From an uncultured Gemmatimonadales bacterium (GTDB lineage: Bacteria; Gemmatimonadota; Gemmatimonadetes; Gemmatimonadales; GWC2-71-9), in NCBI GenBank assembly GCA_963825055.1, contig CAWGSK010000011.1:96001-160000 (forward strand): a DNA stretch of 64,000 nucleotides, given 5' to 3'. Made by a program: the position numbers and the translations under genes. This document shows positions 11,691 through 47,166 of this stretch, in pieces. Numbering within the stretch: the stretch's first letter is position 1; every line of letters starts with the position of its first letter. The notes beneath the pieces were generated by a model. The model was not told where the DNA came from. It made no database searches and saw only the letters and a list, made by a program, of their open reading frames with translations.

Positions 11691-14315
11691 GCGAGGCGAC
11701 GAGTACAGCTGACCGGCGCTCTGGCGGCGCTGGGACGATGTCGATCGCCTGCTCACACGTGCGCTCGATCAGATACCCGAGACGCGCGTCGGCTAGGTCG
11801 AGCGCCGGAGAGGGCAGATACGGAACTGTGGAACTGGTGCTGAGGCTGCTCAACCGCAGCGGGTACGGCGACGAGCAGTACATGGCACCGGCCGTCGCAA
11901 TGGTGCGTGCCGTGCTGGATACGGATACGGACGCGGACGACCTGCCACCCGACGCGACGATCGATCGCTATCGCATCATCGGTCGACTCGGTCGCGGCGG
12001 CATGGCGACTGTGTATCGAGCCGAGCGGTCGGATGGCAGCTACGAGCAGCAGGTGGCGCTGAAGGTACTGCGGCGTGGCGTGGACACGACAGACCTGATC
12101 CGGCGCTTCCTGGTCGAACGGCAGATACTCTCGTCGCTCACTCACCCCAACATCGCCCGCATCCTCGACGGCGGCTCCACGGGCGATGGTCGACCGCCCT
12201 GGTCATGGAGCTCGTCCCGGGCGAGCCAATCACAGCATGGGCCGATGCACACCGGCTTTCTGTCCCCGCGAGGCTGCGCGTTCCTCAGGTATCGATGCGT
12301 GCTATGCCCACCAGCAGCTCGTGGTCCACCGCGACCTCAAGCCTCGAATACCTGGTAGACGAGACCGGCCGGGTTAAGCTGCTCGACTACGGCATTGCAA
12401 AACTGCTTGACGCTGACGGAGACCACACCGACGTGGGCGCGCGACCTCAGACGCCCCACTACGCCAGCCCGGAGCAGCTCGAGGGCGACGGATCACGACG
12501 GCCACTGACGTTTATCAGCTAGGCCTGCTGCTCCGGGAGCTGCTCACCGGCCTGCGGCCGGTGAGACCTGATCTACGCACCGGGGCGACCACGGCGCGCA
12601 TGAGCGCCTCCGTCCTTGACCCCGGCGCAGGCGCTGCCTCACCGGCAGCCCGTGCCATCCAGCGTGGCACTACTCCGGCACGGTTACGCCGGCGCCTCGT
12701 CGGAGATCTCGACCTGATCGTGGCCAAGGCACTCCGCGTTGAGCCTGAACTGCGCTATGCCTCGGCCGACGAGTTCGCCGCCGACCTCCGCCGCCACCTG
12801 CGGGGGCTCCCGATCCAGGCCCATCCCGAGTCGGCCCGGTACCTGGCGCGCAAGTTCATCACCCGACACCGGTGGTTCATTCCTGCCGTTGGGGCGCTTG
12901 CCATCGGAACCGCGCTGTACGTCGGGACTGTCGTCGATCATAACCGACGCCTGGAGCGGGAGCGCGACGCCGCTACTGCCGCTTCGCTGCTCGCCCGGGA
13001 GACCCGGGACTTTCTCGTCGGGATGTTCCAGAGTCCGGACCCGTTCACGCGGCCGATCCCGAGCGAGGGCGACGGATCACGGTGGTCGAGGCCCTCGCGA
13101 TCGGCAGGGACCGCCTGGAAGAGGACTTCGCCGACCAGCCGGCGTTGCGGGCGGCGTTACTGTCGACGATCGGCCAGGTCCTGACGAGGCTGGACCAGAC
13201 CGATGCCGCGTACGAGATGCTGGACGAGGCCATGGCGACGCGGATCCGGGTGGGCGATACCACGTCGGTGCAGTTTGCGGACAATCTGGGGGATGTGGGC
13301 TATCTCCTGATCGGCACGGGACTCCACGACTCCGCCCTGGTCCTGCTCGAACGGCAGGTCGCGCTCGAACGCCACCGGACTCCCCTCGACGGTGAGCGCC
13401 TCGGCCAGGCCCTGCTGGCTCTGGCCATGGGCGAGGCGAGGCGGAACCCGATCCGCGCGGCCGACCTCACGGACGATGCGGTTGCGCAATTGCGAATCGC
13501 CGGAAGCGATCGTCTCGGTGAGGCACTGCGCCAGGCGGCGGACCGATTCCGCGATGGCAATCGCCTGGAAGTGTCGGAGCGGTTCGCTCGCGAAGCGCTT
13601 GACCTCGACCTCGCCCGGGAGGGCCCCGACGCGCTGCACACCGCCATGGCAAAGCATACCCTCGGAGAGACACTCGGGCTCCGCGGGCAGATCGACGAGG
13701 CCCGGATCCTGATCCGGTCGGCCATCGTGGTGTTCGACAGCATGCTGGGCCGGGATCACGCGTTCACCATGGCTGCGCGCAACAACCTTGCAATCGTCGC
13801 CATTAACGCCGGCGCCTTCCCCGAAGCGGAGGCGAGTTATCGCGAACTCCTTGGGGGCCGGCGGGCACGCTATGGGGAGCGCAGCGCCCGATGGCAGGCA
13901 CCTACCAGAATCTCGCCGTGGCCGTCGCGGGTCAGGGGCGTTACGCCGAGGCCGATAGTCTCACCCGGCTGGCGGAAGGGATCTACCGGAATGTGCTCCC
14001 GGCAGGGTCGATCGTTATCGCGTTCCCGATGCTCACGCGCGCGAGATCCTCCTGACCGGTGGCGATGCCATCGGGGCGGCGCAGGCGGCCCGCGGCGCGG
14101 CGGCCCTGCTGCGCGGGCACGTCCCGACCAACCACCCTGCCGCGATCATGGCCGATTGCCGGCTGGGTCGGGCCACCGCCCGGCTGGGTGACACCGTCAG
14201 GGCTCTGGCACTGCTCGACTCTGCCGTCAGCCGGCTACGGACGGCTGAGGGGGTCCGTGGCCCGCAACAGGCGGAATGCCGGGATGCGCTGGCGGCCCTC
14301 ACTCGAGCGCCCTGA
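11690..14315 (+). CDS. Ser/Thr protein kinase with TM segment and TPR repeats; multiple frameshifts; start approximate
   Basis: YRIIGRLGRGGMATVYRAERSDGSYEQQVALKVL, ERQILSSLTHPNIARILDGG, VHRDLKP, VKLLDYGIAKLL, TPHYASPEQ, GDLDLIVAKALRVEPELRYASA. TPRs in ORF 13082-14191. Stop TGA at 14313-14315. Confidence 0.85.
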
Positions 14316-29452: not shown

Positions 29453-32400
29453 CTAGAACCGGAGGGTCAGCCCACCCGTGAAGGTGCGCGACCGCGGATA
29501 GATGTTGTTGTCGATCCCGTTGAGGCCGGACGTCGGGTCGACGCCGCTGTATCCGGTGATCGTTAACGCGTTCTGGATGGTCCCGAACACGCGCGCCGGG
29601 ATCCCGCTGTAGTTGAACGAGTACCCGAGCGTGATGTTGTCCATCCGGAGGAAGGACGCATCCTCCACGTAGACGTCCGAGAAGTACTGGGGGGTCACAA
29701 ACCCGGTCTCGAGCACCGAGGCGTGCAGGTTGTACGGCGATCCCCGGGTGACCTCGGAATAGGTCCCGAGGTTGGACGCCACGTTGTTGTAGACGTAGTT
29801 CCCGAAGTAGGCCCGGAGCGTGAACCCGAGATCCCACTTGTTGTACGTAAGGTAGGAGGAGTGGCCGAACTGCCACTTCGGCGCCGGATCGTGGAACGGC
29901 CGGAGGTCGTTCTGGTTGATGATGCCGTCCGCGTTCTGGTCCTTGTACAGGTCCTGCTCGTTGATGGTCCCGTCGTTGTTCACGTCAGCGTAGATGGGGT
30001 TGCCGCTCGCATCGCGGATGTGCTCATATACGTAGAACGAGTTGACCGGCACGCCGGGAGTGAGCACCTGGATGGTGGAACCCACGCCGCCCGCGATGCC
30101 GCCCGTCAGGATCTGCTGGGCCCCACTCCCGAACGGGTTGATGGTGGTGAGTTCGTTGGAGTTGTGGGCCGCGGTGAAGTCAGCCGTCCAGCCCAGCCGC
30201 CCGCCCGTGCCCTCCATCACGCGAGCGCTCAGGCTGAACTCGACCCCGCGATTCCGCATGCTCCCGATGTTGGTCGTGACGAAGTCGCCGAGGTTCGTAC
30301 CGGCGGCCACGGGAACCCGGAAAATCATGTCCGAGGTCTTCTTGTCATAGACGTCGATCGCGCCGGTGAAGCGCTGGTCCTTGAACCCGAAGTCGATGCC
30401 CAGGTTCCAGGACCGGGTGGCCTCCCACTTGATGTTCGGGTCCACCGCGCTGGGGCGGATCGTCGTGAAGAAGGAATCGGCAAACGCATACTGCGCCTGC
30501 GAGTTGCCCACCGTGTAGGTCGAGTACTGCAGGTAGTTGCCGAAGGACTGGTTGCCCGTCCGCGCCCAGGAAGCGCGAAGCTTCAGGTCCGAGACCGAGG
30601 TGTACTTCTGCATGAATGGCTCGGACGACACCCGCCACGCCACGGCAACGGACGGGAAGGTGCCCCACTGCCGGCCTTCGCCGAAGCGGGATGACCCGTC
30701 ACGCCGGAGGCTGACATTGGCCAGGTACCGGTCATTGATGTCGTAGTTCACCCGCCCGAAGAACGAGATCAACTTGCTGTCCTGCACGTTGAGGGCGTTC
30801 TGGACCGTGCGGGCTGTCGGGATCCCGTCCGTCCCCAGCAGGTCCGTGCTGAGGCCGCTCTCCAGGAACGTGGGATACTCGGCGTGGGCCTTGGAGTAGG
30901 AATACCCCGCCGTGAGGTCCAGGTTGCCCGGCCCCACCGTCCGCGGCACTGCGTAGGCGAGGTAGCCTTCCAGCACCGTGTTGAGCGAGGTGGGGTTTGT
31001 CCGGAACAGCGTGCCATCGGAACCGTTCTTGATCTGGCTGTGCAGGACACTCGGCGTGAACGTCGTCTGGTCCACCTTGGTGACGTCGTAACCCAGGCTC
31101 AGGTTTGCCGCGAGCCCGTCCACCCAGGGAAGGCGATACTCCGACTGGATGTTGCCGATGCTGCGGAAAGTCGTGCTCTTGTCCTTCGCGAGCGCCAGGA
31201 TGGCCACGGGGTTGTCCGCCGACTGGATGCCGCCGGTCCAGTCGAAGTAGCCGGTGGGGGTGGTCGAGTCGTAGATCGGCTGGGTCGGCCCCATCTGCGC
31301 GGCATTGGACAGCACGCCGCCGGGGGTAAACTCGTCGGCCGACCGTGCTCCGCGCAGGTTGACCTTCAGGCTCAGGCGGTCATCCATCAGGCGCTGGTTG
31401 TAGTTCGCGCCCAGGGTCAGGCGCTTGGCCTCGGAGCCCTGAATAACGCCCCTCTGGTCCAGGAAGTTGGCGGAGAACCGGTAGTTGCTGCTGCTGCCGG
31501 CACCGGAGACGGCCAGGTTCTGTTCCTGGCCGAAGGCCGTCCGGTCCACCGCCCCGAACCAGTCGGTGTTCGCGGCCTGCAGCTGGCTCGAGTTCGAAGG
31601 GGCATACTGGTCCACCGCGGCCTTGAACTGCGCGGCGTTCAGCATGTCGGGGAGCCGGGTGACGGACGACGCGGAGAAGCTCCCGCTGTATTCCACCCGC
31701 GGCGCCTGGTTGGCCTCGCCCTTCTTGGTGGTGATCAGCACGACGCCGTTCGCGGCGTTCGCCCCGTAGATCGCCGCCGCCGAGGCATCCCGGAGCACCG
31801 TGATGCTGGCAACGTCGTCGGCATTGAGGAAGTTGAGCGGGTCACGGCCACCGGACAGTCCACCCCCGGCGCCGGAGCCGCCGACCGGCATCCCGTCGAT
31901 CACGATCAGGGGCTCGCTGCTCGCGTTGATGGAGGTCTGCCCGCGGATCCGGATCGACTTGCCGCCGCCCGGCTCGTTGTTGTCCACCACCTGCACGCCG
32001 GCCACCTTGTTCTGGATCAGCTCGGTGGGGGTAATCACCCGGCCGGTGTTGAACTCGTCCGCCGTCACGCTGGTGACGGCGCCAGTGATGTTGCCGGCCG
32101 CCTGCTCACCATAGCCGACCACCACGATCTCGGCCAGGTTGATCGCCCGGCGCGTGAGGGTGAGGTCGAGCTGGAGCGCCTGGCCGGACGCCACTGTCAC
32201 CACCTGGGACATCGGCTCGTAGCCGACCATACGCGTATAAAGCGTGTCTGTGCCGGCGGGAACGCCGGGCAGGACATAGCCCCCGTCCGCCTTGCTGACG
32301 GCCACCCGGCCGGCATATGTGATCGTGGCACCCTGCACAGCCCGCTGCGAGGTGCCGTCCATGACCCGGCCGGAAATGCTGGTCGTTTCCTGCGCCTGAG

Positions 32401-32458
32401 CCGAAGTGATCCAGCATGTCACGAGGATCAACCCGACAAGAATGCGTAGCCGCCTCAT
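29453..32458 (-). CDS. susC: SusC/RagA-family TonB-dependent outer-membrane transporter
   Basis: N-terminal carboxypeptidase-regulatory-like domain; EIVVVGYG, ITVLRDASAAAIYGANAANGVVLITTKKG, RRDGSSRFG, LKLRASW, IKWEAT, VEDASFLRMDNITLGY; C-terminal F. Confidence 0.95.
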   Translation of the reverse strand: MRRLRILVGLILVTCWITSAQAQETTSISGRVMDGTSQRAVQGATITYAGRVAVSKADGGYVLPGVPAGTDTLYTRMVGYEPMSQVVTVASGQALQLDLTLTRRAINLAEIVVVGYGEQAAGNITGAVTSVTADEFNTGRVITPTELIQNKVAGVQVVDNNEPGGGKSIRIRGQTSINASSEPLIVIDGMPVGGSGAGGGLSGGRDPLNFLNADDVASITVLRDASAAAIYGANAANGVVLITTKKGEANQAPRVEYSGSFSASSVTRLPDMLNAAQFKAAVDQYAPSNSSQLQAANTDWFGAVDRTAFGQEQNLAVSGAGSSSNYRFSANFLDQRGVIQGSEAKRLTLGANYNQRLMDDRLSLKVNLRGARSADEFTPGGVLSNAAQMGPTQPIYDSTTPTGYFDWTGGIQSADNPVAILALAKDKSTTFRSIGNIQSEYRLPWVDGLAANLSLGYDVTKVDQTTFTPSVLHSQIKNGSDGTLFRTNPTSLNTVLEGYLAYAVPRTVGPGNLDLTAGYSYSKAHAEYPTFLESGLSTDLLGTDGIPTARTVQNALNVQDSKLISFFGRVNYDINDRYLANVSLRRDGSSRFGEGRQWGTFPSVAVAWRVSSEPFMQKYTSVSDLKLRASWARTGNQSFGNYLQYSTYTVGNSQAQYAFADSFFTTIRPSAVDPNIKWEATRSWNLGIDFGFKDQRFTGAIDVYDKKTSDMIFRVPVAAGTNLGDFVTTNIGSMRNRGVEFSLSARVMEGTGGRLGWTADFTAAHNSNELTTINPFGSGAQQILTGGIAGGVGSTIQVLTPGVPVNSFYVYEHIRDASGNPIYADVNNDGTINEQDLYKDQNADGIINQNDLRPFHDPAPKWQFGHSSYLTYNKWDLGFTLRAYFGNYVYNNVASNLGTYSEVTRGSPYNLHASVLETGFVTPQYFSDVYVEDASFLRMDNITLGYSFNYSGIPARVFGTIQNALTITGYSGVDPTSGLNGIDNNIYPRSRTFTGGLTLRF

Positions 32459-32849
32459 ATCCTTCGTCCTTTCAAACTGGGCTACAACAAAGGCCTCGAT
32501 CATGGGAGATCGAGGCCTGGGGAACCAGGGATGGCACCGTAACCGACATGCGACACATCCGCCCTGCCGGCAGACCGGCAACGCGATGGGGGCCCCATGC
32601 GTACTGCCCCGAACGGAACATTGAATCCTGCATGGGCAACCGTGGAGAAAGGACGGCCAGCTACGGATGTACCGGGGCACACGAGGACGAACACGCCCCC
32701 TCGAGCCTCGGCGGTGGCGACTGTCTGGGATCGCGGGACGCCCGGCACCTCCGCCTCCTGGGTGACGCCCGTATGACAACATTCTTGCGCCCGGTACCGG
32801 ACCCGTCAAGACCCTGTCCCAAGCGTTGTACGGGGGAAGGGAAACCCTG

Positions 32850-33441
32850 ATGCGGCTACGCCACAGTGGAATGAACGGACGGCGCCCCTGGCGGGAAGCG
32901 GCCAGTCGCCCGCCCGCTAGCAAGGGGTGACGGGCGGGCCGCCCGCCCTCGGCCAAACTGCCCTTCATGGGCCACCCCCGGCGTTACCCCCCGGGACCGG
33001 CGGAGCCGGCACCGGGGGGGCTCAACCCTGAAGCGGTTGACTGAGACGGCCCCACCCGGCGAATTGTACGGCATCCATCGTCGGACAGGTTGAGATTGGT
33101 GAACGCGTTGGAGCACTTCTCCGCCGGGGCCGGTTCCAGACATGACCGTAACTCGCCAGCGTGACCTGCCGTACTCCGGCAGTTCCCATCAGTTCGTCGG
33201 CGCCGACAGCGGCGATACCGGATCATCTCGCGCCTTTCTCCTCGAGGCGACTCCCCGGTCGCGGCGACCCGGCCGACGCACCACCATCCCACGACGAGGT
33301 ACAGTTCATCAGGGAGCCTGCCCCGGGATACGCTCCCGAGTTCGTGGTGCGACGGTCGAGGCGTCGTCACCACGAGGAATCCAGGCGCACGGATGACATC
33401 CTGACGTCATCAAGGCCGGGAATTCCCCCGCTTTATCGCAT
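32850..33441 (-). pseudogene. GT2 glycosyltransferase (polyprenol-phosphate sugar synthase-like), heavily degraded; 3' end approximate
   Basis: Minus-strand fragments in shifting frames occur in canonical GT2 order: ATG 33441, DVIRA, (V)DDAST, SNAFTNLNLSD, NRFRVEP (cf. NRFGFEPE), GSLAEG. Confidence 0.6.
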
Positions 33442-34727
33442 GGGATCGACGGAGATGCGAGGCAGGCGCCGGTCACGCGGCGGGTGCTTCTTCCCGGCGA
33501 GCCTGCGGGAGCCGCGTCGCACCACGGCCCCCGCCACCAGGACAAGCAGCAGGGGCTGGAAGGCTCGCTCGGCGCGCTCCGCGTGCGGCAGCGCATGCAG
33601 CTGGGTCGCATAGATCAGGATCGCATGATGGGGAGCAGCCGGCGCCGCTCCCTCCAGGGACGGATCACCGCGACCAAGGCCAGGATCGGGAGCGCGCGCG
33701 CCAGCATGACCTGCACGCCGCCCGGGGCCCGACAGCCGGCCTGTCGCAGCGCCCCGAGCGAAAAGCCGTTCATTGCTCCAATCTGCGTTGGGATCGACGA
33801 CCCAGAAAGTGACCACCTTCTCGGCGGCGTACCGAAGATTGGTGAACGGTTCACTCCGAATCGACCGGATCGCGCGGGCGGTCCACCAGCGGTCTCCCTC
33901 GACGGTGGTCGGGTTGTGCTCGCGCCAGCCGGGACCGTAGATCACCTCGCCCCATACCGCCGGTACGTGTAGCCCTGGTCGCGCAACAGGTGGTAATACT
34001 CCGGGCTCCCCTGCCAGAGGAAGGCGTTGCTGGTGGCCAGGGGGAACCACGCATCGTACCGAATGCGGTTGCGGACAAGCCAGGGACTCACGATCAGCAG
34101 GGTCGCCGCCAGGATCGGGCCATGCTCGCCGGGCTCCGTGAGGCCGAGGGCAAGCGGTGCTGGAGCACGAGGAAAGGGGGAGGAACGGGATCTTCGGCGT
34201 ATGTAGTGCTGATCCTGACAGAGCCCACCCACAGGAAGCGGCCTCTCGTCGGCTCGCAGGCATGCGGAGCGAGCGCACGATGAGGACCAGCGGGGTAAAC
34301 AGGATTTCGCTCAGGAGGTGGAGTGACTGGTGGATGAGGACGTAGCTGAACGCCGCCACCAGGGCGGCCGTCAGGCCGGCGATGTGCCGAACACCCGGCG
34401 ACCGAGATGCCAGGTCACACCACTGACCGGCGCCGGGGACGGCCTGGACGTAGCGGAGGGCATGATAGGACGTGCCGGTCAGCCAGTGGACCGCGGCTAC
34501 CCACAGGGGGTAGAGCGGCACCCGGCCCACCCAGGTGTAGCCCTGTCCGGCCAGCAATTCCGGCGCGGTGGTGTTGCAACCGGGCGCCCCGATGAGCCAC
34601 GCCGTATTGTCCGGCTGGCGCTGATTGAACCACCAGGCCGCGAAGAGGCGGATCAGCAGCGCCAGCACGACCAGAACCCCGGCCACCCTGCGGCAGGCGA
34701 CCGGGTCATGCCGACCTGCTTCACCAT
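33433..34727 (-). CDS. GT-C fold membrane glycosyltransferase (ArnT/PMT_2-like); multiple frameshifts
   Basis: Hydrophobic fragments RVPLYPLWVAAVHWLTG..ALRYVQA, LLSEILFTPL, SPWLVRNRIRYDAWFPLATSNAFLWQG, AIRSIRSEP..LRYAAEKV. Confidence 0.7.
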
Positions 34728-38240: not shown

Positions 38241-38510
38241 ATGCGGCTCAGCCCGAAGGCACTCGCCATCTCCCTCGGCGTGATGTGGGGACTTGGCGTC
38301 CTGTGTGTAGGCCTCGCCCACCAGATCTGGCCCGGCTATGGCGGCGCCTTCCTCGACCTGATGGCCTCGATCTATCCCGGATACCATCCCGGCGGTATGG
38401 GGGCGGTCATCGTCGCGGCGCTTTACGCCCTGGTGGACGGCGCGGTGGGCGGGCTGGTGCTGGCGTGGGTCTACAACGGGGCGGCCGGGATGGCAGGTTC
38501 CGTGGCATAA
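38241..38510 (+). CDS. Small membrane protein (family often auto-annotated as holin-like)
   Basis: 89 aa, hydrophobic helices, ASIYPGY and DGAVGG..AWVYN motifs, strong RBS AGGAGG. Confidence 0.7.
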   Translation: MRLSPKALAISLGVMWGLGVLCVGLAHQIWPGYGGAFLDLMASIYPGYHPGGMGAVIVAALYALVDGAVGGLVLAWVYNGAAGMAGSVA

Positions 38511-38514
38511 ACGG

Positions 38515-38967
38515 TCAGGGCGCGCCATCCAGGAACACGGCGCGCCGCTCCGCCCAGGCGGTGCCGAGCGCTTCGAGCACTTCCTCGTCCAGGACTGCCT
38601 CCGCCATGGGGAAGGCGACCCGCTCTTCCTTCGCGAAATGCTCGCGGGCTAGCGCGACCGCCTCGAGCAACGCCGCACGCGCCGTGTCCTGCTTCGCGCT
38701 CACCTGTGCCCGGTCCAGCAACGCGGCGATGCGCTGGTGCTCGTCTTCCATGGTGGCCAGGAGCCCCACGTCCGCCCCGGCTTCCGCCATCCGGCGGAAG
38801 AGTACCTCGTCCTCCAGCCTGGCGTGCGAGATGAGTGCCGCCGCCAGGAGGGCGGCCTGCTCCCGGATCTGGTGCTCGTCAGTCCCGTGCGGCAGGTCCG
38901 CTTCAAGGCGATCGAACTGGGCGTAGAAGGCGCCGTGCTCGCCCAGCAGGGCATCCGTCATTTTCAT
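38515..38967 (-). CDS. Hemerythrin-domain protein
   Basis: LLGEH, HARLEDEVLF, MEDEHQRI, EHFAKEERVAFP (HHE pattern); ATGA overlap with the upstream dehydrogenase. Confidence 0.88.
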   Translation of the reverse strand: MKMTDALLGEHGAFYAQFDRLEADLPHGTDEHQIREQAALLAAALISHARLEDEVLFRRMAEAGADVGLLATMEDEHQRIAALLDRAQVSAKQDTARAALLEAVALAREHFAKEERVAFPMAEAVLDEEVLEALGTAWAERRAVFLDGAP

Positions 38968-39986
38968 GGCGTCACCACCACGCGAATCGCATTCCCGCCC
39001 CGAAGCTCGTCGAACGCCTCCGCGATACGGTCGAGCGGATAGCGGTGTGTCACGAGCTCCTCCAGCCGCACACCGCCCTGCCGCACCATCTCGATGGCCC
39101 GCGGGTAGTCCACCGGCCGGCAACCCAGGGAACCGAGTACCGTGATCTCCCGGAACATCACCCGTCCTGCGTTGAGCGGCAGCGTCTCGGGGCTGTATCC
39201 GACCAGCACGACACGACCGCCGGTCCGGACACCATTGAGCGCCAGTTCCTGGGTCGCCGCCCGGCCCACCGCCTCGAACGCGACATCGGCGCCCCCGCCG
39301 GTAAGGTGACGGATCTCGCGATCCACCCGGGACGCACCGCCGGAATTGAGGGTCGCCACGGCGCCGAACCGGCGCGCCGCATCCAGCTTGAGGTCATTCA
39401 CGTCCACGGCGATCACCCTGCCTCCCAGCGCGGTGGCAATCTGGACCAGGCTCAGGCCCACGCCCCCACACCCGATCACCAGCACCCAGTCGCCGGGCAC
39501 CACCCGGCCACGCCGCACCACGGCGTGGAACGGCGTGGTCACCGCGTCGGCGATGATGGAACCCTCCACCAGGGGCACGTCGTCCGGGAGCGGGAACACG
39601 TCCTTTGCCGGCACGGCGATGAACTCCGCGAAGCCGCCGTCGATGTGGTTCCCCAGCATCCGGCTGTTTTCGCAGATGTTCTCCCGCCCGGAACGGCACA
39701 GTGTGCAGTACCCGCACGACAGCACTGCGGGGATCAGCACACGATCCCCCTCCGCGAGGGCCGACACGCCGTCGCCCACGCCGGCCACCGTGCCGGCCAC
39801 TTCGTGGCCAAGGATGACGGGAGGCGGCTTGAAGGTCGGCGTGCCGTGGTCGATATAGTGGAGGTCGGTGTGGCAGACGCCGCATCCCGCCACCGCAATG
39901 AGCACCTCGCCGGGCCCGGCCACCGGCGTGGTGACTTCCTCCAGCTCGAGCGGCTGGTGCGCGGCATGAAACACGGCGGCCTTCAC
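38964..39986 (-). CDS. had: Zn-dependent dehydrogenase, probably 6-hydroxycyclohex-1-ene-1-carbonyl-CoA dehydrogenase
   Basis: GCGVCHTD, LGHE, CGYCTLCRSGRENIC, GCGGVG, GSLGCRPVDYP; position in the bcr operon. Confidence 0.8.
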   Translation of the reverse strand: MKAAVFHAAHQPLELEEVTTPVAGPGEVLIAVAGCGVCHTDLHYIDHGTPTFKPPPVILGHEVAGTVAGVGDGVSALAEGDRVLIPAVLSCGYCTLCRSGRENICENSRMLGNHIDGGFAEFIAVPAKDVFPLPDDVPLVEGSIIADAVTTPFHAVVRRGRVVPGDWVLVIGCGGVGLSLVQIATALGGRVIAVDVNDLKLDAARRFGAVATLNSGGASRVDREIRHLTGGGADVAFEAVGRAATQELALNGVRTGGRVVLVGYSPETLPLNAGRVMFREITVLGSLGCRPVDYPRAIEMVRQGGVRLEELVTHRYPLDRIAEAFDELRGGNAIRVVVTP

Positions 39987-40222
39987 GGCGCCCTCCTGGA
40001 GTAGATGATGCGGAACAGGTCGAAGGCGAGGCGGCAGTCGCCGCATTCCTCCCGAAGGTCGGCTGGCCCCGGGCGCTCAAGGCGCACCTCGAACCCCAAC
40101 TCCCGGTAGAGCCGTACCGACTCGGCCAGGCGATCCCCCGCGGCCATGAAGCGCCGCGTCCATCCTTCCGCCTCCGGCCCCGGCGGCTGGAGCGGCTCGA
40201 ACACCGGCAGCGGCCGGCCCAT
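39983..40222 (-). CDS. Small hypothetical protein with a CxxC motif
   Basis: 79 aa, GWTRRFMA..RLAESVRLYRELGFEVRLE..ECGDC..IYSR; overlaps both neighbours. Confidence 0.75.
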   Translation of the reverse strand: MGRPLPVFEPLQPPGPEAEGWTRRFMAAGDRLAESVRLYRELGFEVRLERPGPADLREECGDCRLAFDLFRIIYSRRAP

Positions 40223-41031
40223 CAGGCCGCCGCGGTCGCGCCGCGTTTGGCCAGCCGGTCCCGGCCGAGGATGGCCGCGCCGATCGCGGCGGTGAACTGG
40301 GCGAGCGGCTCCGCCGGCACGTTGACCTCGATGCCGAGCTGGTCGTGCAGCACCTGCGCCATGGTGGGGAAACGCAGGATCCCGCCGACCAGGGTGACCT
40401 CCGGCTCCAGCTTCACGCGCTTGAGCAGCTGGACGCAGCGCGTGACCAGGGACACCATGGCACCGTGCACAATGTCGGCGGGGAGGCGGCCCGTGGAGAC
40501 GTGATTGATGACTTCCGACTCCGCGAAGACCGCGCAGACTCCTGAGATTGCCGCCGCGTCCGCGGAGGCAGCGGCCAGGGCACCGATCTGCGCGGTGCCA
40601 TAACCGAGGTAGCGCGCCGTCTTCTCCAGGAACGCGCCCGTGCCGGCGGCGCACTTGTCGTTGAGGCGGAAGGACATCACCCGGCCACGTCCATCGATCC
40701 GGCTGGCCTTCATCGTCTGTCCACCCACGTCCAGGATCGTGTGGGTTCCGGGAAAGAAGTAGTGGGCCCCGCGCCCCTGCGCGGTCAGGTCGGTGGCCTG
40801 AAGGTCGCGGAAGGGAACCTGGTAACGGCCTGCGCCGGTGCTCACCAGGATATCGACGTCGTCCCGGGTGGCTCCCGCGTGGCGCAGCACCGCCGCCCAG
40901 GTCTCGCCGGCGACCTCCTCGAGCTTGAATCCCGTGGGCTGCATGGCCGTGGCCACGAGGGCGCCGTCCGCGCCGAGGAGTGCTGCCTTGGTATACGTCG
41001 ATCCGACGTCGATGCCACCGGTGAGGTTCAT
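40222..41031 (-). CDS. bcrD: Benzoyl-CoA reductase ATPase subunit D (BadG/BcrD-type activase)
   Basis: [46 protein letters not shown]. Confidence 0.82.
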
Positions 41032-41846
41032 GGCGTCACCCCCGCGCGTGAGGCCGCGGGCACCCCTGCCAGGACACGGTCCATGGCGAAGAGGGCCGCG
41101 CCGAGCGCGCCCATGTAGTGCGAGTCTTCGCCGACCTGCAGCGTGGTCCCGAGCAGTTCGTTAAGCACGGCCACCATCGCGATGTTCCGTGCCACCCCGC
41201 CCGTGAAAGTGACGGTTTCCTCCACCCCGACCCGCGTGAGCAGCGAACGCGAACGTGCGGCGATGGACCGGTGCACCCCCATCAGGATGTCCTCCAGTTT
41301 CTTCCCCTTGGCCGCCCAGGCGAGCACCTCCGACTCGGCGAACACCGTACAGGTGGTGGAGATCTTGACCGGCCGCTGGGCCCGCAGGGCGATCCCGCCA
41401 AGTTCGTCGAGCGGGATCTCCAGCGCGAAGGATGCCGCCTGCAGGAACCGTCCGGTCCCGGCGGCGCACTTGTCGTTCATGCAGAAGTCGAGAACGTCCC
41501 CATTCTCGCCCACGCGGATGGCCTTGGTGTCCTGCCCGCCCATGTCCAGGACTGTGCGCGTGCCGGGAAACAACTGCACCGCCCCGCGGGCATGGCAGCT
41601 GATCTCGGTGACCTGGTCGTGGCCGAAGGTCACCTTGTAGCGCCCGTACCCGGTGCCGATCACGTATCCGACCTCCGCCTCCCGGACCACGGCATCATCG
41701 AGCGCGGCCTGGAATGCCTCCTCCGCCGCGTGGACCACATTGGCGCCGGTCATGATCAGCGACCGTCCGCGGATGCGGCCAGCCTCGTCCACGATTACGG
41801 CCTTGGTCTGGGTGGAGCCGACGTCCACTCCGCCTGCGTACGGCAT
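41028..41846 (-). CDS. bcrA: Benzoyl-CoA reductase ATPase subunit A (BadF/BcrA-type activase, short form)
   Basis: [68 protein letters not shown]. Confidence 0.82.
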
Positions 41847-41857
41847 CGTTCCTCCGT

Positions 41858-43147
41858 TCACCCCGCGGCGGCGGTGCGCAGCCGACGGGAGTTGAGGCCC
41901 TCGAAAAAGGCATCGATCCTGTTCTTGAGCTGCGCCTCCGACACCACCCGGCGGTCCATCATGTCCGACTCGATGTAGAGGCACTGCACGTCCCGCTCCC
42001 GCATCACGGCTTTCCGGCTGCCGGCCAGTCCGGTGGAGACGGTGCGGCAGCTCTTGACCGGGTGGTAGACGATGCCGTCCGCCCGGGCAAGGTCCACCTC
42101 CGCGATAAGCTGGCGGTCCTGGAAGAGCATGGCGTCCCCCGCGTGGCCGATGCCCCGGAGGATGCCCTCGGCGAGGCTCGACAGCGGCCGCTCGAGGTCG
42201 TACTGGAAGCCCAGGTCCAGCCCGCCCGCGGCGAACCAGAGGTACGTGGACCCCACGAACACCCCGCCCCGGTCGGCGAACATCTCATGGAAGCGCCGGA
42301 AGATCGGGTAACACGGCACGCCCACGAACAGCAGGCGATGCTGCTCGTCCTCCAGGGCGCCGATGCCCCGGTCGACCTTGTACTCGATCTCCTCGACCAG
42401 CCGCTCGAAATACTCCGCCCCCTCGCGGGTACCACGGAGCGCGTTCAGGACGCCGAGATAGATCGTGCCGTCCACCAGGGCGTTGAACGGGGCCGGCGTG
42501 GCCCGGTTGAGCTCGAGGATCCGCTTCCACGATGTCGCCATCCGGTTGGTGTAGCCCAGCACTTCCACCAGGCGCTCGAGGTCCAGCGTCCGGCCGGTGA
42601 GCGTGGTGCAGGTATCGATGAGCTCGCAGAGCTGGTGCTCGAGGTACTGGAGGTCCTGCTCCCGCGGGGCGGTGGCGCTGTTCGACTCCCCCGCTGAGCG
42701 TGAGCCCGGGATGTCCAGGGTGAACATGGGAATCCGGTAGTGGCGCTCCCAGAACTCGGCCCACTTCACGTAGGTGTTGCACGCGTTCGTGGCCAGGGCC
42801 AGTGAGGGCTTCGGGATCCGCCCCATCGGATGCTGCCCGCCGCGGAGCTGGACCGCCACGTCGGCCTTCACGTATCCGCAGATGTCCGGCGAGTAGCCGT
42901 AGTCCTCGGCCTCGCCGAGGTATTCGTGGGCCACGTGCCGCACCGCGGTCTGGAGCGAGTTGATCTCCGGGAACACCAGGTGCATCTCGAAGGCGCGCAG
43001 GATCTCCGCCAGGCTGCCCATGACAAAGACATAGGCCGCCGGCTCGCCCCGTTCGGCGGCGGCGTCCAGCCGGTGGAACCACTCCCGCATGAGCGCCGCG
43101 CCCTCCCGCGCCCCGCGTCCCACGGTGTCCAGCGGCCCTGCCGTCAC
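41858..43147 (-). CDS. bcrB: Benzoyl-CoA reductase subunit B (2-hydroxyacyl-CoA dehydratase family)
   Basis: [68 protein letters not shown]; resembles Thauera BcrB as recalled. Confidence 0.85.
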
Positions 43148-43157
43148 GACAACCTCC

Positions 43158-44333
43158 TCAGTTGAACAGGATGCTTTCCACGAAGGTTTCGAGCTGAAGC
43201 TGCAGCTGGTCGAAGCCAGACATCTTCTCCTCGAACTCCGTGATGAAGTAGGGAATCCCCTCTCCGTCCAGGGCCTTGGCGTAGGCCACCTGCTCGTCCA
43301 GCCCCGGTTCGCACATCTTGGCCGCGGCCAGGATGGCTGCCTCCGCCTGTGCGCCCCGCAGGCGCCGCAGGAGCATCTCCTCCTTGGGCTTCCGCGTGTC
43401 GTGCTGCACCGGGCTGTACGAGGATCCCTCCAGGTAGGCCGTCGCCAGGGCGCCCAGGGGATCGCCGTCGGGATGCACATCATCGATCAGGAACCGCAGG
43501 CCGATCAGCAGGTCGTCATCGACCACGTAGCACGACTGGCTGATCATCGACAGCAGGTCCAGCGGCGGCTGCTCACAGAACCCGCCCTCCAACACGACCC
43601 GGATGCGGTCCTGCTGACGGGCCGTCCGCGCCCGCAGCTGCGGGAGGAGCGACCGGAGCAGGAGATTGTGTTCCTCCCGGGGAATGAGCCCGCCGATCGA
43701 GACGAGGACGTAGGCCTGGTCCACGGGAAGCAGCCACGGCGTCTCCCGCTTGATGGCGTACAGGTCGCGGATCAGGCGGCGGTTCTCGTTGAAGACGGCG
43801 ATCGCCCGGCGCAGGTCGTCCCCGCTCGCCCGGCGTCCGGCCACGGCCTCGAGGTCCTGCAGGACGCGAGCATACTCCTGCCGGAGGTAGGTCGGCGCCC
43901 CGGACGAGTTGGGATTCTGCGGCAGGTAGAGGATCTGCGCCGGGTAGGTGAAGTTCCGCGACCAGACACCGGCGAGGTTCCGCGCTGCGTCGCAGATCGG
44001 GTGCGTCACGAAGAAGTCGAGCGGCAGGCGCCCGTCCAGGGCCACCTCCAGCGAACTGCGGAGGATGGAGCAGAGATAGGAGCCGAAATGGGAGTCGGCC
44101 TGCCGCATTTCGACCGGGGCGCCCCGCACCTTCACCGGCAGCATGCCGACGGCGTGCGCGAGTTCCTCCGGGAAGTACACCTGGAAGTGCCCCAGGACCT
44201 TCCCGCCCCGCTCCTTCCACGCATGAACGGTCGGGAACTCCGGATCCTCCACCAGGTCGCGGCAGGCACCCAGTGCGGCATCGAGGGGCAGCGCCGCCAC
44301 CGCGGCCACGTCAAACACAGTCGTGGTGCTCAT
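43158..44333 (-). CDS. bcrC: Benzoyl-CoA reductase subunit C
   Basis: SYLCSILRS, ICDAARNL, FNENRRL, PREEHN, GGFCEQPPL, CYVVDDD, KMCEP, ETFVESI; resembles Thauera BcrC as recalled. Confidence 0.87.
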   Translation of the reverse strand: MSTTTVFDVAAVAALPLDAALGACRDLVEDPEFPTVHAWKERGGKVLGHFQVYFPEELAHAVGMLPVKVRGAPVEMRQADSHFGSYLCSILRSSLEVALDGRLPLDFFVTHPICDAARNLAGVWSRNFTYPAQILYLPQNPNSSGAPTYLRQEYARVLQDLEAVAGRRASGDDLRRAIAVFNENRRLIRDLYAIKRETPWLLPVDQAYVLVSIGGLIPREEHNLLLRSLLPQLRARTARQQDRIRVVLEGGFCEQPPLDLLSMISQSCYVVDDDLLIGLRFLIDDVHPDGDPLGALATAYLEGSSYSPVQHDTRKPKEEMLLRRLRGAQAEAAILAAAKMCEPGLDEQVAYAKALDGEGIPYFITEFEEKMSGFDQLQLQLETFVESILFN

Positions 44334-45097
44334 CCCGCCTCCTTCCATGCGGGAGCGCGTTTCTCCAGAAACGCTGCCAGCCCCTCCCGGGTATCGTCCA
44401 GTTCCATCAGTTCGTTCCGGTAGATCGCCTCCGCCCCGGCCAGGGCCCCGGAAAGGGAAAGCTCCAGCCCGGCATCCACCGCCCGCTTGGCGACGCGGAG
44501 GGCGGGCCCGCTCAACGCGAGCAGGTCCTGCACATAGGCGTCGGCCTTCGCGGCAAAGTCGTCCGCCGGCCAGGCCTGGGTCGCGAGGCCCAGCCGGGCC
44601 GCTTCCTCCCCGGTCAGCGTGCGGCCCGTCAGTATCAGGTCGAGGGCGCGCTGGCGACCGACCATGCGGGGGAGCAGCGCGGCGGCGAGTGGCGGGAACA
44701 CCGCCAGCCGGATCTCGGGAAGGCCCAGTTTCGCGTCGGCGCGGGCGAGAACGATGTCGCAGGCCAGTGCCAGCTCGCATCCGCCGCCCAGGGCGGCACC
44801 CTGGACGACCGCCACGGTCGGCATGTCCAGGGCCATGATGACACCGACCACCTGGTGGAACGCCTCGAGCATCCGCCCGACCCGCTCCGGCGTGTGGTCG
44901 GCGACGTCCACCCCGGCGGAAAACGCCTTCCCCGCGCCGGTGATGGTGAGCACACGGATCGCGCGGTCATTTACCACGGTTCGCAGGCAGGCCGTCACGG
45001 CCTCCAGGGTTTCGATGTCGAGCACGTTGACCGGCGGGCGGTCCAGCACCAGCCGACCCAGCCCCCCGTCATGCTCGAGCCGAACGTTCGCGCTCAC
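44330..45097 (-). CDS. dch: Enoyl-CoA hydratase, probably cyclohexa-1,5-diene-1-carbonyl-CoA hydratase
   Basis: LDRPPVNVLD, AFSAGVDVADH, ALGGGCELA, GLPEIRLAVFPP, YRNELM..D..EGLAAFLEKR; operon context. Confidence 0.82.
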   Translation of the reverse strand: MSANVRLEHDGGLGRLVLDRPPVNVLDIETLEAVTACLRTVVNDRAIRVLTITGAGKAFSAGVDVADHTPERVGRMLEAFHQVVGVIMALDMPTVAVVQGAALGGGCELALACDIVLARADAKLGLPEIRLAVFPPLAAALLPRMVGRQRALDLILTGRTLTGEEAARLGLATQAWPADDFAAKADAYVQDLLALSGPALRVAKRAVDAGLELSLSGALAGAEAIYRNELMELDDTREGLAAFLEKRAPAWKEAG

Positions 45098-46194
45098 GGG
45101 AGGGCCGGCACGGCGTCCTGGGCCATGGAGGCTCCACAGGAACCGCAGAAGGCGAACCCCGTGGGAATCCCCTGCGCGCCGCACGCGGTGCAGTCGGCCT
45201 CGTAGGGACCCCAGACGAATTCGCTCGATCCGCCCGCCGCCGCGCGTTCGCGCAACTCGAGGTAGCGGGCCGGGCGCTTCTCGACGAACGCCCGCATCCC
45301 CTCCCAGGGCTCGAACGTGGTGTAATGGGTGGAGAGCCAGTCGCGCGCATGGCCGATGGTCTGGTGCCAGGCGAGTTCCTTCCAGAAGTTCACCTGCTGC
45401 TTGGTGTAGCGCTGGCACTCGGGGAACTGCTGCAGCAGCTGGCGTACCAGGTCTGCCACGGCCTCGTCCAGCTTCGCGAGGCTGATGCCGTACCCGTCCG
45501 TGCCCTTCTCCGCCTTCCTGATCTCCTCCGGCGTGGCGCCGGTGATGAACTCCCCGTTCCGTGTCACTGACGGCGCCACCCGGTTGACCAGCCCCCACTC
45601 CAGCGCCTGCGGGGCGCTCACCCGGTTGTTGAGCAGCAGCATCTCACGGGCACGGCGGTCGCCGATATGAATCGGGAGCCACTGGGTCGCCCCCCCGGCA
45701 GCGACGCTGCCGACCCGGGTTCCCACCTGGCTGATCCAGGCATGCTCTGCGATGACGGCAAGGTCGCACGCGAGCTGCGACTCGTTGCCCCCACCCACCG
45801 CCATGCCGTTGATCCGCGCGATCACGGGCTTGCCGGCGTTGACGAGCGACTCGATCCAGGCGCGGAAGAGGCCCATGTACTTCCAGTAATCGCGCGGCCG
45901 GGCGGTGTAGGCCTCTTCGTATTCCTTTACGTCGCCGCCGGTGCAGAAGGCCCGGTGCCCGCTGCCCGTCACCACGATGACGCCGACGGTATCATCGAAC
46001 GCGGCGTCCTGGACCGCCGTGGCGAGCTCGCGCAGGGCGCGCGTGCTGTAGGCGTTGTAGTTGTGCGGACGGTTGATAGTCACGGTCGCGACCCAGTCCG
46101 CCTTCCGGTACTCGATCTCGGCAAAGCCGAAGGAGGCAGGGTCGCGGGATTCGAACTCACGCATGGGCGGATCCTCCGGGGCGGGACGGACCAT
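45094..46194 (-). CDS. oah: 6-oxocyclohex-1-ene-1-carbonyl-CoA hydrolase (ring-opening crotonase) with a C-terminal Zn ribbon
   Basis: YNAYST, AFCTGGDVKEY..Y..P.DY..YM.LF, GSVAAGGAT, LDEAV..L..FPEC, ARDWL; tail CTAC-x11-CGSC. Alternative start at 46164. Confidence 0.82.
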   Translation of the reverse strand: MVRPAPEDPPMREFESRDPASFGFAEIEYRKADWVATVTINRPHNYNAYSTRALRELATAVQDAAFDDTVGVIVVTGSGHRAFCTGGDVKEYEEAYTARPRDYWKYMGLFRAWIESLVNAGKPVIARINGMAVGGGNESQLACDLAVIAEHAWISQVGTRVGSVAAGGATQWLPIHIGDRRAREMLLLNNRVSAPQALEWGLVNRVAPSVTRNGEFITGATPEEIRKAEKGTDGYGISLAKLDEAVADLVRQLLQQFPECQRYTKQQVNFWKELAWHQTIGHARDWLSTHYTTFEPWEGMRAFVEKRPARYLELRERAAAGGSSEFVWGPYEADCTACGAQGIPTGFAFCGSCGASMAQDAVPALP

Positions 46195-47087
46195 CAGGCC
46201 GCGTCCAGGGCGGCGTCCCCCTCGCGGCAGACCTCCGCGACGTACCGCTCCGCCGGTTCGGCAAGCACGTCGTGGTAGGTCTCGAAGAGCTTCGCGGCAG
46301 CCTCGCCGTTCCACCCATCGGGCAGCAGGGGACGGGGAAGGAATGGATCATCCATCGGGAAGGCGCGATACTCGTGCACCAGCAGGAAGCGACGCCGGAA
46401 GCAATCGGCCGGCGCGGTACACGGGCTGTGGATACCGGCGCGCGCGCCGGAGAGTCCGCACTGCCGGCAGTGCTCCAGGGCCGCGCGCCAGTGGTCCAGG
46501 AATGCGGCGTAGCGCCGGTTCAGCGCCGCCAGGTCCCAGCACTGCCTCACCAGGGCCGCCGCGTCGGCAAAGCCCTCGTGCGAGCCGCGGAACAGCTCGA
46601 GATGTTTCTCGACCTTGAGGTCGGTGGCGATAGCGCGAACCTCGGCCCGGACATCATGGGGCGAGATCCATACGCCGTTCGAGAGGGAACCGAAGCCGAG
46701 CCAGGCGAGGCGCGTACGGAGGGAGTCGCGGCGGCGGCGGCGCGATTCGGGGATCGAGAACGTCACGACCGACCACTGCCCGTCCCAGGCCTCGTGGGCC
46801 GAAGGGTGGTAGATCCGCTCCCGGCCCGACTCGAGGAGTGCCCGGCCCTTGCGGGTAAGTCCGTAGGCGCTCCGGGTTCCGTACCGCTCGACCGTGAGCC
46901 AGCCCTTCCGCGCCATGCGCGACAGGACCGTACGCGTTGCCGTGTCAGACAGGCCGAGGCCACCCAGCAGCGTGATGAGCGCGCCGGTCGAGACCGGCTC
47001 ATCCCGCCCGAGGAGATAGTCCCCGTAGAGGGTGAACACCAGGTCCTGCGAACGCGGGCTCGACGGGGCGACGGCTGATTGTTTCAT
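46194..47087 (-). CDS. paaX: PaaX-family transcriptional repressor with a Cys-rich insertion
   Basis: SQDLVFTLYGDY, RTVLSRMARKGWL, WDGQW, RDSLRTRLAWLGFGSLSNGVWISP, CWDLAAL, LVHEYRAFPMDDPFLPRPLLPDGWNG. Confidence 0.9.
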   Translation of the reverse strand: MKQSAVAPSSPRSQDLVFTLYGDYLLGRDEPVSTGALITLLGGLGLSDTATRTVLSRMARKGWLTVERYGTRSAYGLTRKGRALLESGRERIYHPSAHEAWDGQWSVVTFSIPESRRRRRDSLRTRLAWLGFGSLSNGVWISPHDVRAEVRAIATDLKVEKHLELFRGSHEGFADAAALVRQCWDLAALNRRYAAFLDHWRAALEHCRQCGLSGARAGIHSPCTAPADCFRRRFLLVHEYRAFPMDDPFLPRPLLPDGWNGEAAAKLFETYHDVLAEPAERYVAEVCREGDAALDAA

Positions 47088-47137
47088 TTTGTGGACGCTC
47101 GTCCAGGGACAGCTATATAGCACTATTGCTACGACCG

Positions 47138-47166
47138 AGAATATAGTGACATATTAGCTCTGTCAA
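47138..47166 (-). promoter_or_regulatory. sigma70 promoter of the paaX-bcr operon, overlapped by a TGACA-N9-TGTCA palindrome
   Basis: Minus strand TTGACA (47166-47161), 17 nt spacer, TATTCT (47143-47138); palindrome at 47147-47165; AT-rich island in a GC-rich background. Confidence 0.75.

What the first reader, a model, noticed from the sequence alone, without database searches (positions are those of the whole stretch)
38515..47166. Complete PaaX-led class I benzoyl-CoA reductase operon with apparent O2/redox accessories, in a Gemmatimonadota-like genome
Seen: ten co-oriented genes, paaX-oah-dch-bcrC-bcrB-bcrA-bcrD-orf79-had-hemerythrin, mostly coupled by ATGA/GTGA/TGATG overlaps and driven by one consensus promoter. 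Known: BcrABCD, Dch, Had and Oah form the ATP-dependent anaerobic dearomatisation route of Thauera/Rhodopseudomonas/Azoarcus. Regulators there are BadR/BadM/AadR or BzdR, whereas PaaX is best known from aerobic phenylacetate operons. Inference: this is a distinct operon architecture that gives anaerobic ring reduction to a lineage mostly cultured as aerobes. It also carries four extra metal-binding elements, listed separately below.
Basis: partly seen in the sequence, partly recalled or inferred. Interest (0 to 1): 0.85.

Follow-up and report, generated by a model that had tools for sequence, protein, structure and literature searches.

The report
PaaX-controlled anaerobic ring-reduction operon
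A Gemmatimonadota genome carries an intact ten-gene operon that likely breaks aromatic rings without oxygen using a known ATP-driven enzyme type, here likely switched by a repressor from the aerobic phenylacetate family through a predicted DNA binding site, and carrying a small conserved gene whose job is unknown.

Summary
The operon is real and at the stated coordinates. All four reductase subunits are closest to the solved 3-methylbenzoyl-CoA reductase MbdONPQ (MBR type; E 1e-83 to 1e-158). They do not match Thauera BcrABCD or the dehydratases. Cluster cysteines and the catalytic Glu are conserved. The reductase is common: 48 of 300 sampled phylum genomes. This scan reported it before on other DNA, including another Gemmatimonadota genome.

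New here:
(1) A 44-bp palindrome over the promoter, the predicted PaaX operator. It tracks PaaX-led operons and is absent from 14 of 14 TetR-led ones. PaaX-led is the minority form (10 of 48).
(2) orf79 co-occurs tightly with the reductase (both in 44 of 300 genomes, orf79 alone in 1). It has an invariant CxxC and no family or fold match.
(3) The 'hemerythrin' has the YtfE/RIC di-iron ligand set.

O2/redox roles for the accessories are untested, and two of the four PaaX insert cysteines occur in only 18 of 49 homologs. The host encodes oxidases plus NirK-like, Nor-like and NosZ enzymes, so anaerobic ring reduction is no paradox. Verdict: new variant of a known kind, interest 0.42.

The parts
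47138..47166 (-). sigma70-like promoter (TTGACA, 17 nt, TATTCT)
   Evidence: 1 found, 0.6 expected; similar pattern in 26 of 48 upstream regions
47113..47156 (.). predicted PaaX operator, 44-bp palindrome overlapping the -10 box
   Evidence: top site in the genome (50.7 bits) with a matrix trained without the window; held-out tests
47077..47120 (.). second, weaker operator-like site 36 bp downstream, over the paaX start codon
   Evidence: 21.1 bits, second in the genome but barely above AT-rich background (20.3); tandem site scores 27.8-48 in close relatives
46194..47087 (-). PaaX-family repressor, 297 aa, with a short Cys-containing insert
   Evidence: three PaaX Pfam domains over cut-off; TIGR02277 225 < 264.55; PDB 8a39 E 1e-31
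45094..46194 (-). Oah-like ring-opening hydrolase with C-terminal CxxC-x11-CxxC (putative zinc ribbon)
   Evidence: TIGR03200 best hit, 190.6 < 464.45; 34% to an over-cut-off Oah; four Cys in 50 of 51 homologs
44330..45097 (-). Dch-like dienoyl-CoA hydratase
   Evidence: TIGR03189 best hit, 177.4 < 292.5
43158..44333 (-). MbdN-like (BcrC) subunit, predicted single [4Fe-4S] on C88/C114/C341
   Evidence: 9g87_B E 8.9e-158 against HadC 3.7e-38 and BzdN 1.3e-28; three Cys in 68 of 68
41858..43147 (-). MbdO-like (BcrB) catalytic subunit, C90/C123/C367 and E61
   Evidence: 9g87_A E 1.9e-138 against HadB 1.9e-30 and BzdO 1.9e-26; conservation
41028..41846 (-). MbdQ-like ATPase subunit, 272 aa, C127/C166
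   Evidence: 9gai_D E 1.9e-114; Cys in 77 of 77
40222..41031 (-). MbdP-like ATPase subunit, 269 aa, C127/C166
   Evidence: 9gai_C E 2.5e-83; Cys in 72 of 72
39983..40222 (-). orf79: conserved reductase-linked protein of no known family, invariant CxxC
   Evidence: W21 R24 G43 C60 C63 Y74 R76 invariant in 62 sequences; co-occurrence; no Pfam or NCBIfam hit
38964..39986 (-). Had-like zinc alcohol dehydrogenase
   Evidence: TIGR03201 best hit, 256.9 < 338.65; zinc ligands in 58 of 58
38515..38967 (-). hemerythrin-like di-iron domain with YtfE/RIC-type ligands H11 H48 E52 H77 H110 E114
   Evidence: PF01814; invariant in 23 of 23; best PDB match YtfE E 8e-9, DcrH 6e-3; ligand list in PMC9268430
47218..47670 (+). 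divergent MaoC-like hydratase sharing the promoter region
   Evidence: PF01575; in 27 of 53 loci with enough upstream DNA

Best explanation
This is an intact ten-gene operon whose four reductase subunits are closest to the solved MBR-type reductase MbdONPQ, and it likely dearomatises benzoyl-CoA or a simple substituted aroyl-CoA without oxygen, under a PaaX-family repressor predicted to bind a conserved palindrome over the promoter. Shown: gene order, family assignments, conserved cluster ligands, distribution, and the palindrome's link to PaaX. Inferred from the characterised enzymes: reduced ferredoxin passes electrons to the [4Fe-4S] cluster bridging the two ATPase subunits, one ATP is hydrolysed per electron, and electrons move through the C-subunit cluster to the B-subunit cluster, where Glu61 assists formation of the cyclic 1,5-dienoyl-CoA. 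Dch, Had and Oah would then hydrate, oxidise and open the ring to a 3-hydroxypimeloyl-CoA. An aroyl-CoA would release PaaX from the operator. No ferredoxin or ligase gene is in the operon; two small ferredoxins and a 2-oxoacid:ferredoxin oxidoreductase cluster elsewhere in the genome are candidate electron suppliers. orf79 is most likely an accessory of the reductase, and the di-iron protein most likely an Fe-S repair or NO-handling helper; both roles are untested.
For: All four subunits hit Mbd chains best by wide margins; B is about 50% identical to MbdO by my hand count, against 32-33% to two over-cut-off BcrB. In a 112-row tree B lies with those BcrB across a branch of SH-aLRT 100 from 72 rows best matching dehydratase or BzdO models, yet in its own clade. 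BzdO ligands Cys95/128/380, Glu65 and Tyr97 (PMC11971306) map to C90/C123/C367, E61 and Y92 (E61 by offset, as that alignment starts at residue 70), conserved in 74-78 of 78 homologs with gaps as the only exceptions. Locus L079 pairs the same reductase clade and orf79 with Oah and Had over their cut-offs (558 > 464, 471 > 339). The nine-gene core is in 31 of 43 fully covered loci. Operator evidence. A benzoate-CoA ligase family gene is over cut-off in 4 of 5 reductase-bearing relatives, with two partial matches in the fifth. The genome has clade II NosZ over cut-off, a NirK-like gene, a Nor-like gene beside NorQ and several heme-copper oxidases.
Against: No activity or expression data. None of the Bcr, Bzd, Oah, Dch, Had or PaaX models reaches cut-off. 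BzdO His131 is Tyr126 here (78 of 78) and Phe in MbdO, so the BzdO mechanism transfers only in part. No benzoate-CoA ligase over cut-off and no family III CoA-transferase were found in this 87% complete genome, so the source of the aroyl-CoA is unseen. No Nar or Nap was found among 3 molybdopterin matches (two of them assigned by my reading). MbdO itself is not in the tree, the tree was a quick search without bootstrap, and none of the 72 outgroup rows is over a curated cut-off. Three PaaX homologs (48-53% identity) in genomes without a reductase hit lack the palindrome, and two training sites score weakly (15 and 16 bits).
Confidence: 0.85

Rival explanations
1. Same chemistry, but the physiological substrate is a substituted or unusual aroyl-CoA (methyl, hydroxy, halo, amino or heteroaromatic) rather than benzoyl-CoA; the divergent Dch, Had and zinc-ribbon Oah would be adapted to it. 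This refines the main reading rather than excluding it.
For: The closest enzyme is the 3-methylbenzoyl-CoA reductase; Oah, Dch and Had all fall below the benzoate-type cut-offs; Oah is 34% identical to a canonical Oah and has an extra Cys4 tail; no benzoate-CoA ligase was found in this genome.
Against: The same reductase clade sits with canonical Oah and Had in L079; 4 of 5 relatives have a benzoate-CoA ligase family gene over cut-off; no peripheral pathway gene is linked.
Confidence: 0.3
2. The accessories make the pathway resilient to O2 or NO: orf79 shields, matures or feeds the exposed ATPase cluster and the RIC-like protein repairs damaged clusters, so the reductase survives oxic-anoxic shifts.
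For: orf79 and the reductase are both present in 44 of 300 genomes, reductase alone in 4, orf79 alone in 1; invariant CxxC; YtfE-type ligands; a hemerythrin-like domain in 46 of 61 loci, also in a TetR-led operon; an ScdA_N/DUF2249 gene next to it in L040; the host makes and reduces NO by gene content.
Against: No functional data. The function of YtfE itself is disputed (iron donor or nitrite reductase; search listing). orf79 is missing from 4 of 61 loci and the di-iron gene from 15 of 61. Kin are not independent in the co-occurrence count.
Confidence: 0.22
3. PaaX is only an autoregulated passenger, and the palindrome is bound by another factor or is promoter conservation.
For: No binding was measured; the site overlaps the promoter; the seed was read off the training sequences; three PaaX homologs elsewhere lack it.
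Against: In split operons the site stands both before the reductase genes (L038 51.2, L046 47.8, L065 32.4, L074 35.4, L134 35.5) and before the distant paaX (35.5, 23.3, 14.5, 20.5; 13.1 in L139); it is absent from 14 of 14 TetR-led regions (at most 1.5).
Confidence: 0.1
4. B and C are a 2-hydroxyacyl-CoA dehydratase with its activator, acting in amino-acid fermentation.
For: Same Pfam families (PF06050, PF01869); HadBC models score E 1e-41 and 1e-45; some sources label homologs as dehydratases.
Against: Scores to Mbd exceed those to Had by more than 100 orders of magnitude for B and C; tree split of 100; two different ATPase subunits; Oah/Dch/Had neighbours.
Confidence: 0.03

Closest known systems
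MBR-type class I benzoyl-CoA reductase MbdONPQ (3-methylbenzoyl-CoA reductase; PDB 9g87, 9gai, 9gal, 9gba) and the mbd cluster of Azoarcus/Aromatoleum sp. CIB
   Same: Best PDB match for all four subunits; two short ATPases of about 270 aa; three-Cys N subunit; matching active-site motifs; ring-opening enzymes in the same operon (PMC4424350 passages).
   Different: The mbd cluster is controlled by the TetR protein MbdR and includes ligase, transporter and lower-pathway genes. Here the regulator is PaaX-family, no ferredoxin or ligase is linked, and orf79 and a RIC-like gene are present. Whether the mbd cluster has an orf79 homolog could not be tested.
BCR-type BcrABCD of Thauera aromatica (TIGR02259-02263)
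   Same: Same overall pathway; BcrB and BcrC are the best NCBIfam models for B and C; same side of the deep tree split.
   Different: All scores are far below cut-off; 32-33% identity to over-cut-off BcrB; A lacks the long N-terminal part of BcrA.
BZD-type BzdNOPQ of Aromatoleum sp. CIB (PDB 8s02)
   Same: Catalytic Cys triad, Glu and Tyr conserved; short ATPase subunits.
   Different: Only 3 of the 6 double-cubane cysteines of BzdN align (PMC11971306); His131 is replaced; E-values of 1e-26 to 1e-28 only.
PaaX repressor of aerobic phenylacetate catabolism (E. coli; PDB 8a39)
   Same: All three PaaX domains; leads its own transcript; long palindromic operator over the promoter (E. coli TGATTC-N27-GAATCA, PMC9493321).
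   Different: Below the TIGR02277 cut-off; different half-sites with a 22-nt spacer and a conserved central dyad; linked to an anaerobic reductase, whereas PMC13186573 reports paaX rarely outside phenylacetate-ligase contexts.
RIC/YtfE di-iron proteins
   Same: His/His-x3-Glu/His/His-x3-Glu ligand set; best PDB match.
   Different: No fused ScdA N-terminal domain; weak similarity (E 8e-9); iron binding untested.

Membership tests
MBR-type class I BCR | All four subunits closest to MbdO/N/Q/P | tested here: met
MBR-type class I BCR | Cluster ligands: 3 Cys in B, 3 Cys in C, 2 Cys in each ATPase; catalytic Glu | tested here: met
MBR-type class I BCR | One clade with MbdO in a tree | tested here: inconclusive
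   MbdO was not available as a stored sequence; placement inferred from scores: 465 bits for B, 345 bits for clade member P0149
MBR-type class I BCR | ATP-dependent aroyl-CoA reduction by a permanent heterotetramer | not testable with these tools
   needs an anaerobic assay
BCR-type (Thauera) BcrABCD | TIGR02259/02260/02261/02263 cut-offs and a long BcrA | tested here: not met
   207.5/578, 198.8/486.55, 133.9/312.85, 257.6/421.15; A is 272 aa
BZD-type BCR | Six-Cys double-cubane N subunit; TIGR03190-03192 cut-offs | tested here: not met
2-hydroxyacyl-CoA dehydratase HadBC | NF052455/NF052456 cut-offs; grouping with dehydratase-like rows | tested here: not met
Oah/Dch/Had equivalogs | TIGR03200/03189/03201 cut-offs | tested here: not met
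   best hits but below cut-off; works-like reading kept on context
PaaX family | PaaX, PaaX_M and PaaX_C domains | tested here: met
PaaX equivalog (phenylacetate repressor) | TIGR02277 cut-off | tested here: not met
   225.1 < 264.55
PaaX family | Binds the operator and is released by an aryl-CoA | not testable with these tools
   operator predicted only
RIC/YtfE di-iron domain | Four His and two bridging Glu ligands | tested here: met
   the first His lies outside the printed alignment and is matched by pattern
O2-binding hemerythrin | Five His, Glu and Asp ligand set (recalled, not from a call); TIGR02481 cut-off | tested here: not met
   only four invariant His; 25.2 < 51.75

The most novel reading that the evidence does not exclude
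orf79 is an unrecognised fifth component of a large MBR clade: a new-family CxxC protein that protects, matures or delivers electrons to the ATPase cluster, working with a stand-alone RIC-like repair protein so that an enzymatic Birch reductase persists in facultative bacteria exposed to O2 and NO, under a PaaX-family regulon with its own operator.
Probability: 0.22. Interest if true: 0.72.

Novelty: new variant of a known kind. Interest (0 to 1): 0.42.

Why it matters
It implies that about one in six sampled Gemmatimonadota genomes (48 of 300) could dearomatise rings anaerobically, and that standard Bcr/Bzd models miss them because they fall below cut-off. It extends PaaX-family control to an anaerobic pathway and gives an exact site to test. 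It also names orf79 as a candidate helper for producing or stabilising these oxygen-sensitive reductases, which are of interest as biocatalysts. The core chemistry is already known and structurally solved, so the surprise is moderate.

Tried and rejected
- Complex prediction of orf79 with A, D and C: verdict 'no answer'; not used for or against binding.
- orf79 fold: model pLDDT 79, pTM 0.63; no Foldseek match at E 0.001 or better; best Z 3.8 among 48,161 chains; atlas hits only unnamed clusters under 0.9. This shows neither a new fold nor a function.
- Oah tail in the atlas: low-scoring unnamed clusters only.
- Sequencing runs: no RNA holder listed.
- Plasmids: no Oah match at 1e-40; 7 records with B-like matches at 23-26% identity.
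- Metagenome scan with the orf79 alignment could not run, so orf79 neighbourhoods outside genome collections are unchecked.
- The PaaX Cys insert as a general redox sensor: not supported (C207 35, C210 18, C223 18, C229 34 of 49).
- A wider PaaX regulon in this genome: no site beyond the two at this promoter rises above AT-rich background, and none lies within about 1.5 kb of five ligase genes of relatives.
- Recent horizontal import: GC matches the genome and the nearest tree neighbours are Gemmatimonadales.
- Tiedt et al. 2018 is not held; only its title was seen, in a reference list.
Full report
Observation. Seven of nine junctions overlap by 1 or 4 nt; two have 10-11 nt gaps. The promoter TTGACA-17-TATTCT (47166-47138) is the only consensus hit in 10 kb, against 0.6 expected; a similar pattern occurs in 26 of 48 paaX upstream regions. 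GC matches the genome. RpoB places the genome in Gemmatimonadota, nearest a Gemmatimonadales genome at 82% (4 of 5 genomes matched).

Reductase type. NCBIfam gives BcrB and BcrC as best models, but all Bcr and Bzd models are far below cut-off. In the PDB, B, C, A and D hit 3-methylbenzoyl-CoA reductase MbdO, MbdN, MbdQ and MbdP at E 1.9e-138, 8.9e-158, 1.9e-114 and 2.5e-83. The next non-Mbd hits are dehydratase or activator chains at 1.9e-30, 3.7e-38, 2.1e-61 and 1.5e-45. B is about 50% identical to MbdO (216 of 431 columns, my hand count) and 32-33% to two proteins over the BcrB cut-off. I built a tree from B, 23 of the 79 locus homologs and 88 near-full-length proteins of the 150 listed, dropping fragments and one fusion. 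B groups with the two true BcrB across a branch of SH-aLRT 100 from 72 rows whose best model is HadB or BzdO, but within its own clade. Limits: quick search, no bootstrap, midpoint root, no authentic MbdO, HadB or BzdO row. Fuchs et al. 2025 (PMC11971306; parts 1-4 of 8 read) define BCR, MBR and BZD types and list the BzdO ligands. C90, C123, C367, E61 and Y92 correspond to them and are conserved in 74-78 of 78 homologs. His131 is not conserved: Tyr here, Phe in MbdO. Subunit C keeps three of BzdN's six cysteines, as MbdN does. Each ATPase has two invariant cysteines.

Pathway context. Oah, Dch and Had are best hits but below cut-off. In locus L079 the same reductase clade and orf79 sit beside an Oah and a Had over cut-off, which ties this clade to ring dearomatisation. 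The window Oah aligns with that Oah at 34% and adds a four-Cys tail present in 50 of 51 homologs, the exception being L079. The genome has a 2-oxoacid:ferredoxin oxidoreductase cluster with a flavin/Fe-S partner, two small ferredoxins, six COX1-family matches (one beside NorQ, one short), a NirK-like gene below cut-off and clade II NosZ over cut-off. No benzoate-CoA ligase over cut-off, family III CoA-transferase, Nar or Nap was found in this 87% complete assembly; 4 of 5 reductase-bearing relatives have the ligase family over cut-off. A BoxB-like cluster on contig C13 suggests a parallel aerobic route.

Distribution. The genome scan kept 79 loci from 101 confirmed matches; 65 of 79 titles are Gemmatimonadota, 9 Chloroflexota and 5 others. 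Of 43 loci covering both flanks, 31 have the nine-gene core and 27 also a hemerythrin-like domain, using score thresholds I chose. That set is biased to close relatives. In an even sample of 300 other phylum genomes, 48 have B at E 1e-100 or better and 13 have this PaaX at E 1e-50 or better, 10 of them among the 48. I fetched 16 of the 48 reductase regions, 15 chosen for lacking PaaX: 14 are TetR-led, one shows no regulator, and one is from a PaaX genome. The characterised mbd operon is also TetR-controlled (PMC4424350, passages). PaaX-led is therefore the minority form of a module with an exchangeable regulator.

Operator. Upstream regions of 48 paaX genes share a 44-bp palindrome with TGTCAC-like half-sites 22 nt apart and a central ACG-N2-CGT dyad. 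46 of 48 match at least 17 of 28 seed positions, against 4 of 960 shuffles; palindrome correlation is 0.88 against at most 0.52 in 2000 column shuffles. The seed came from those sequences, so the held-out tests matter more. A matrix trained without the window ranks 47113-47156 first in the genome (50.7) and an adjacent site second (21.1; background up to 20.3). Split operons carry it before the reductase genes (L038, L046, L065, L074: 32-51; L134: 35.5) and before the distant paaX (L101-L104: 14.5-35.5; L139: 13.1); G045 has it at 39.2. All 14 TetR-led regions score 1.5 or less, as do L078, L079 (no PaaX match in its genome), L031 and L053. Against: three PaaX homologs in genomes without a reductase hit lack it. 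E. coli PaaX binds TGATTC-N27-GAATCA (PMC9493321, passages), a similar layout with a different sequence. Binding is predicted, not shown.

Accessories. orf79 and B are both present in 44 of the 300 genomes, B alone in 4, orf79 alone in 1, neither in 251; kin are not independent. It is kept in loci that lack had (L038, L079), so it belongs to the reductase. Seven residues including CxxC are invariant in 62 sequences. It has no family hit. The di-iron protein has four His and two Glu invariant in 23 of 23 and matches YtfE best (ligands in PMC9268430, passages). The PaaX cysteine insert is only partly conserved. None of this shows an O2 or redox role.

Literature and earlier notes. Searches listed no paper describing a PaaX-led reductase operon or MBR-type enzymes in Gemmatimonadota. 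Most hits were seen as listings only, the library lacks most subscription journals, and no supplements were read; genome tables in supplements may list such genes. Passages read: PMC10936416 (12 of 40 Krumholzibacteriota MAGs have all four bcr subunits), PMC11704145 (class I BCR in many sediment phyla; one Gemmatimonadota MAG with aromatic mineralisation genes, pathway not seen), bioRxiv 10.1101/2025.11.25.690425, PMC13186573 (paaX rarely outside phenylacetate contexts). No paper for the Mbd structures was listed. This scan had already called MBR-type operons in other genomes, including a Gemmatimonadota; I reached the MBR reading before that look-up. Look-ups for orf79 and for the operator returned nothing.

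Verdict. A real, native operon of a known enzyme type in a new regulatory arrangement, with a testable operator and one tightly linked unknown gene. New variant of a known kind; interest 0.42.

Noticed in passing
window 9320-12300: About 3 kb of low-GC (38%), A-rich low-complexity sequence inside a 68% GC contig, starting at the end of a glycoside-hydrolase-like gene; similar AT-rich patches on contigs C34 and C7. Looks like an assembly or base-calling artefact.
   Followed up: partly
G000:C13:163152-171532 (L090): TetR-led cluster with a short BoxB-like di-iron protein (217 < 499 bits), crotonases, aldehyde dehydrogenase and thiolase: a likely aerobic aryl-CoA route in the same genome; also noted earlier as e1-8358780.
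   Followed up: partly
G000:C13:302952-312078 (L092): Three-gene 2-oxoacid:ferredoxin oxidoreductase cluster in tandem duplicate, the first beta copy shorter; a real duplication or an assembly artefact.
   Followed up: partly
G000:C12:22195-28433, C12:126603-129627, C24:23280-26304: Several multiheme cytochromes with 7-19 CxxCH motifs; one pair appears on two contigs with the same lengths.
   Followed up: no
L136-L138: PaaX homologs (48-53% identity) in genomes without a reductase hit and without the palindrome, beside transporter-like and unknown genes; regulon unknown.
   Followed up: partly
window 38241-38510 (+): 89-aa membrane protein converging on the operon end; scores just over the NCBIfam holin_4 cut-off (70.8 against 70) with no phage context; beside 1 of 79 homologous loci.
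   Followed up: no
L031, L053: Deeper-branching members of the reductase clade (50-51% identity) lack paaX, oah, dch, had and orf79 but have a hemerythrin-like gene; they may act on another substrate.
   Followed up: no
L040:13597-14052: DUF2249 plus ScdA_N gene facing the hemerythrin-like gene, i.e. the two halves of a RIC protein side by side; seen in one locus only.
   Followed up: partly
window 32400-34700: Fragmented ORFs of a membrane glycosyltransferase-like gene, apparently frameshifted (label from my reading).
   Followed up: no
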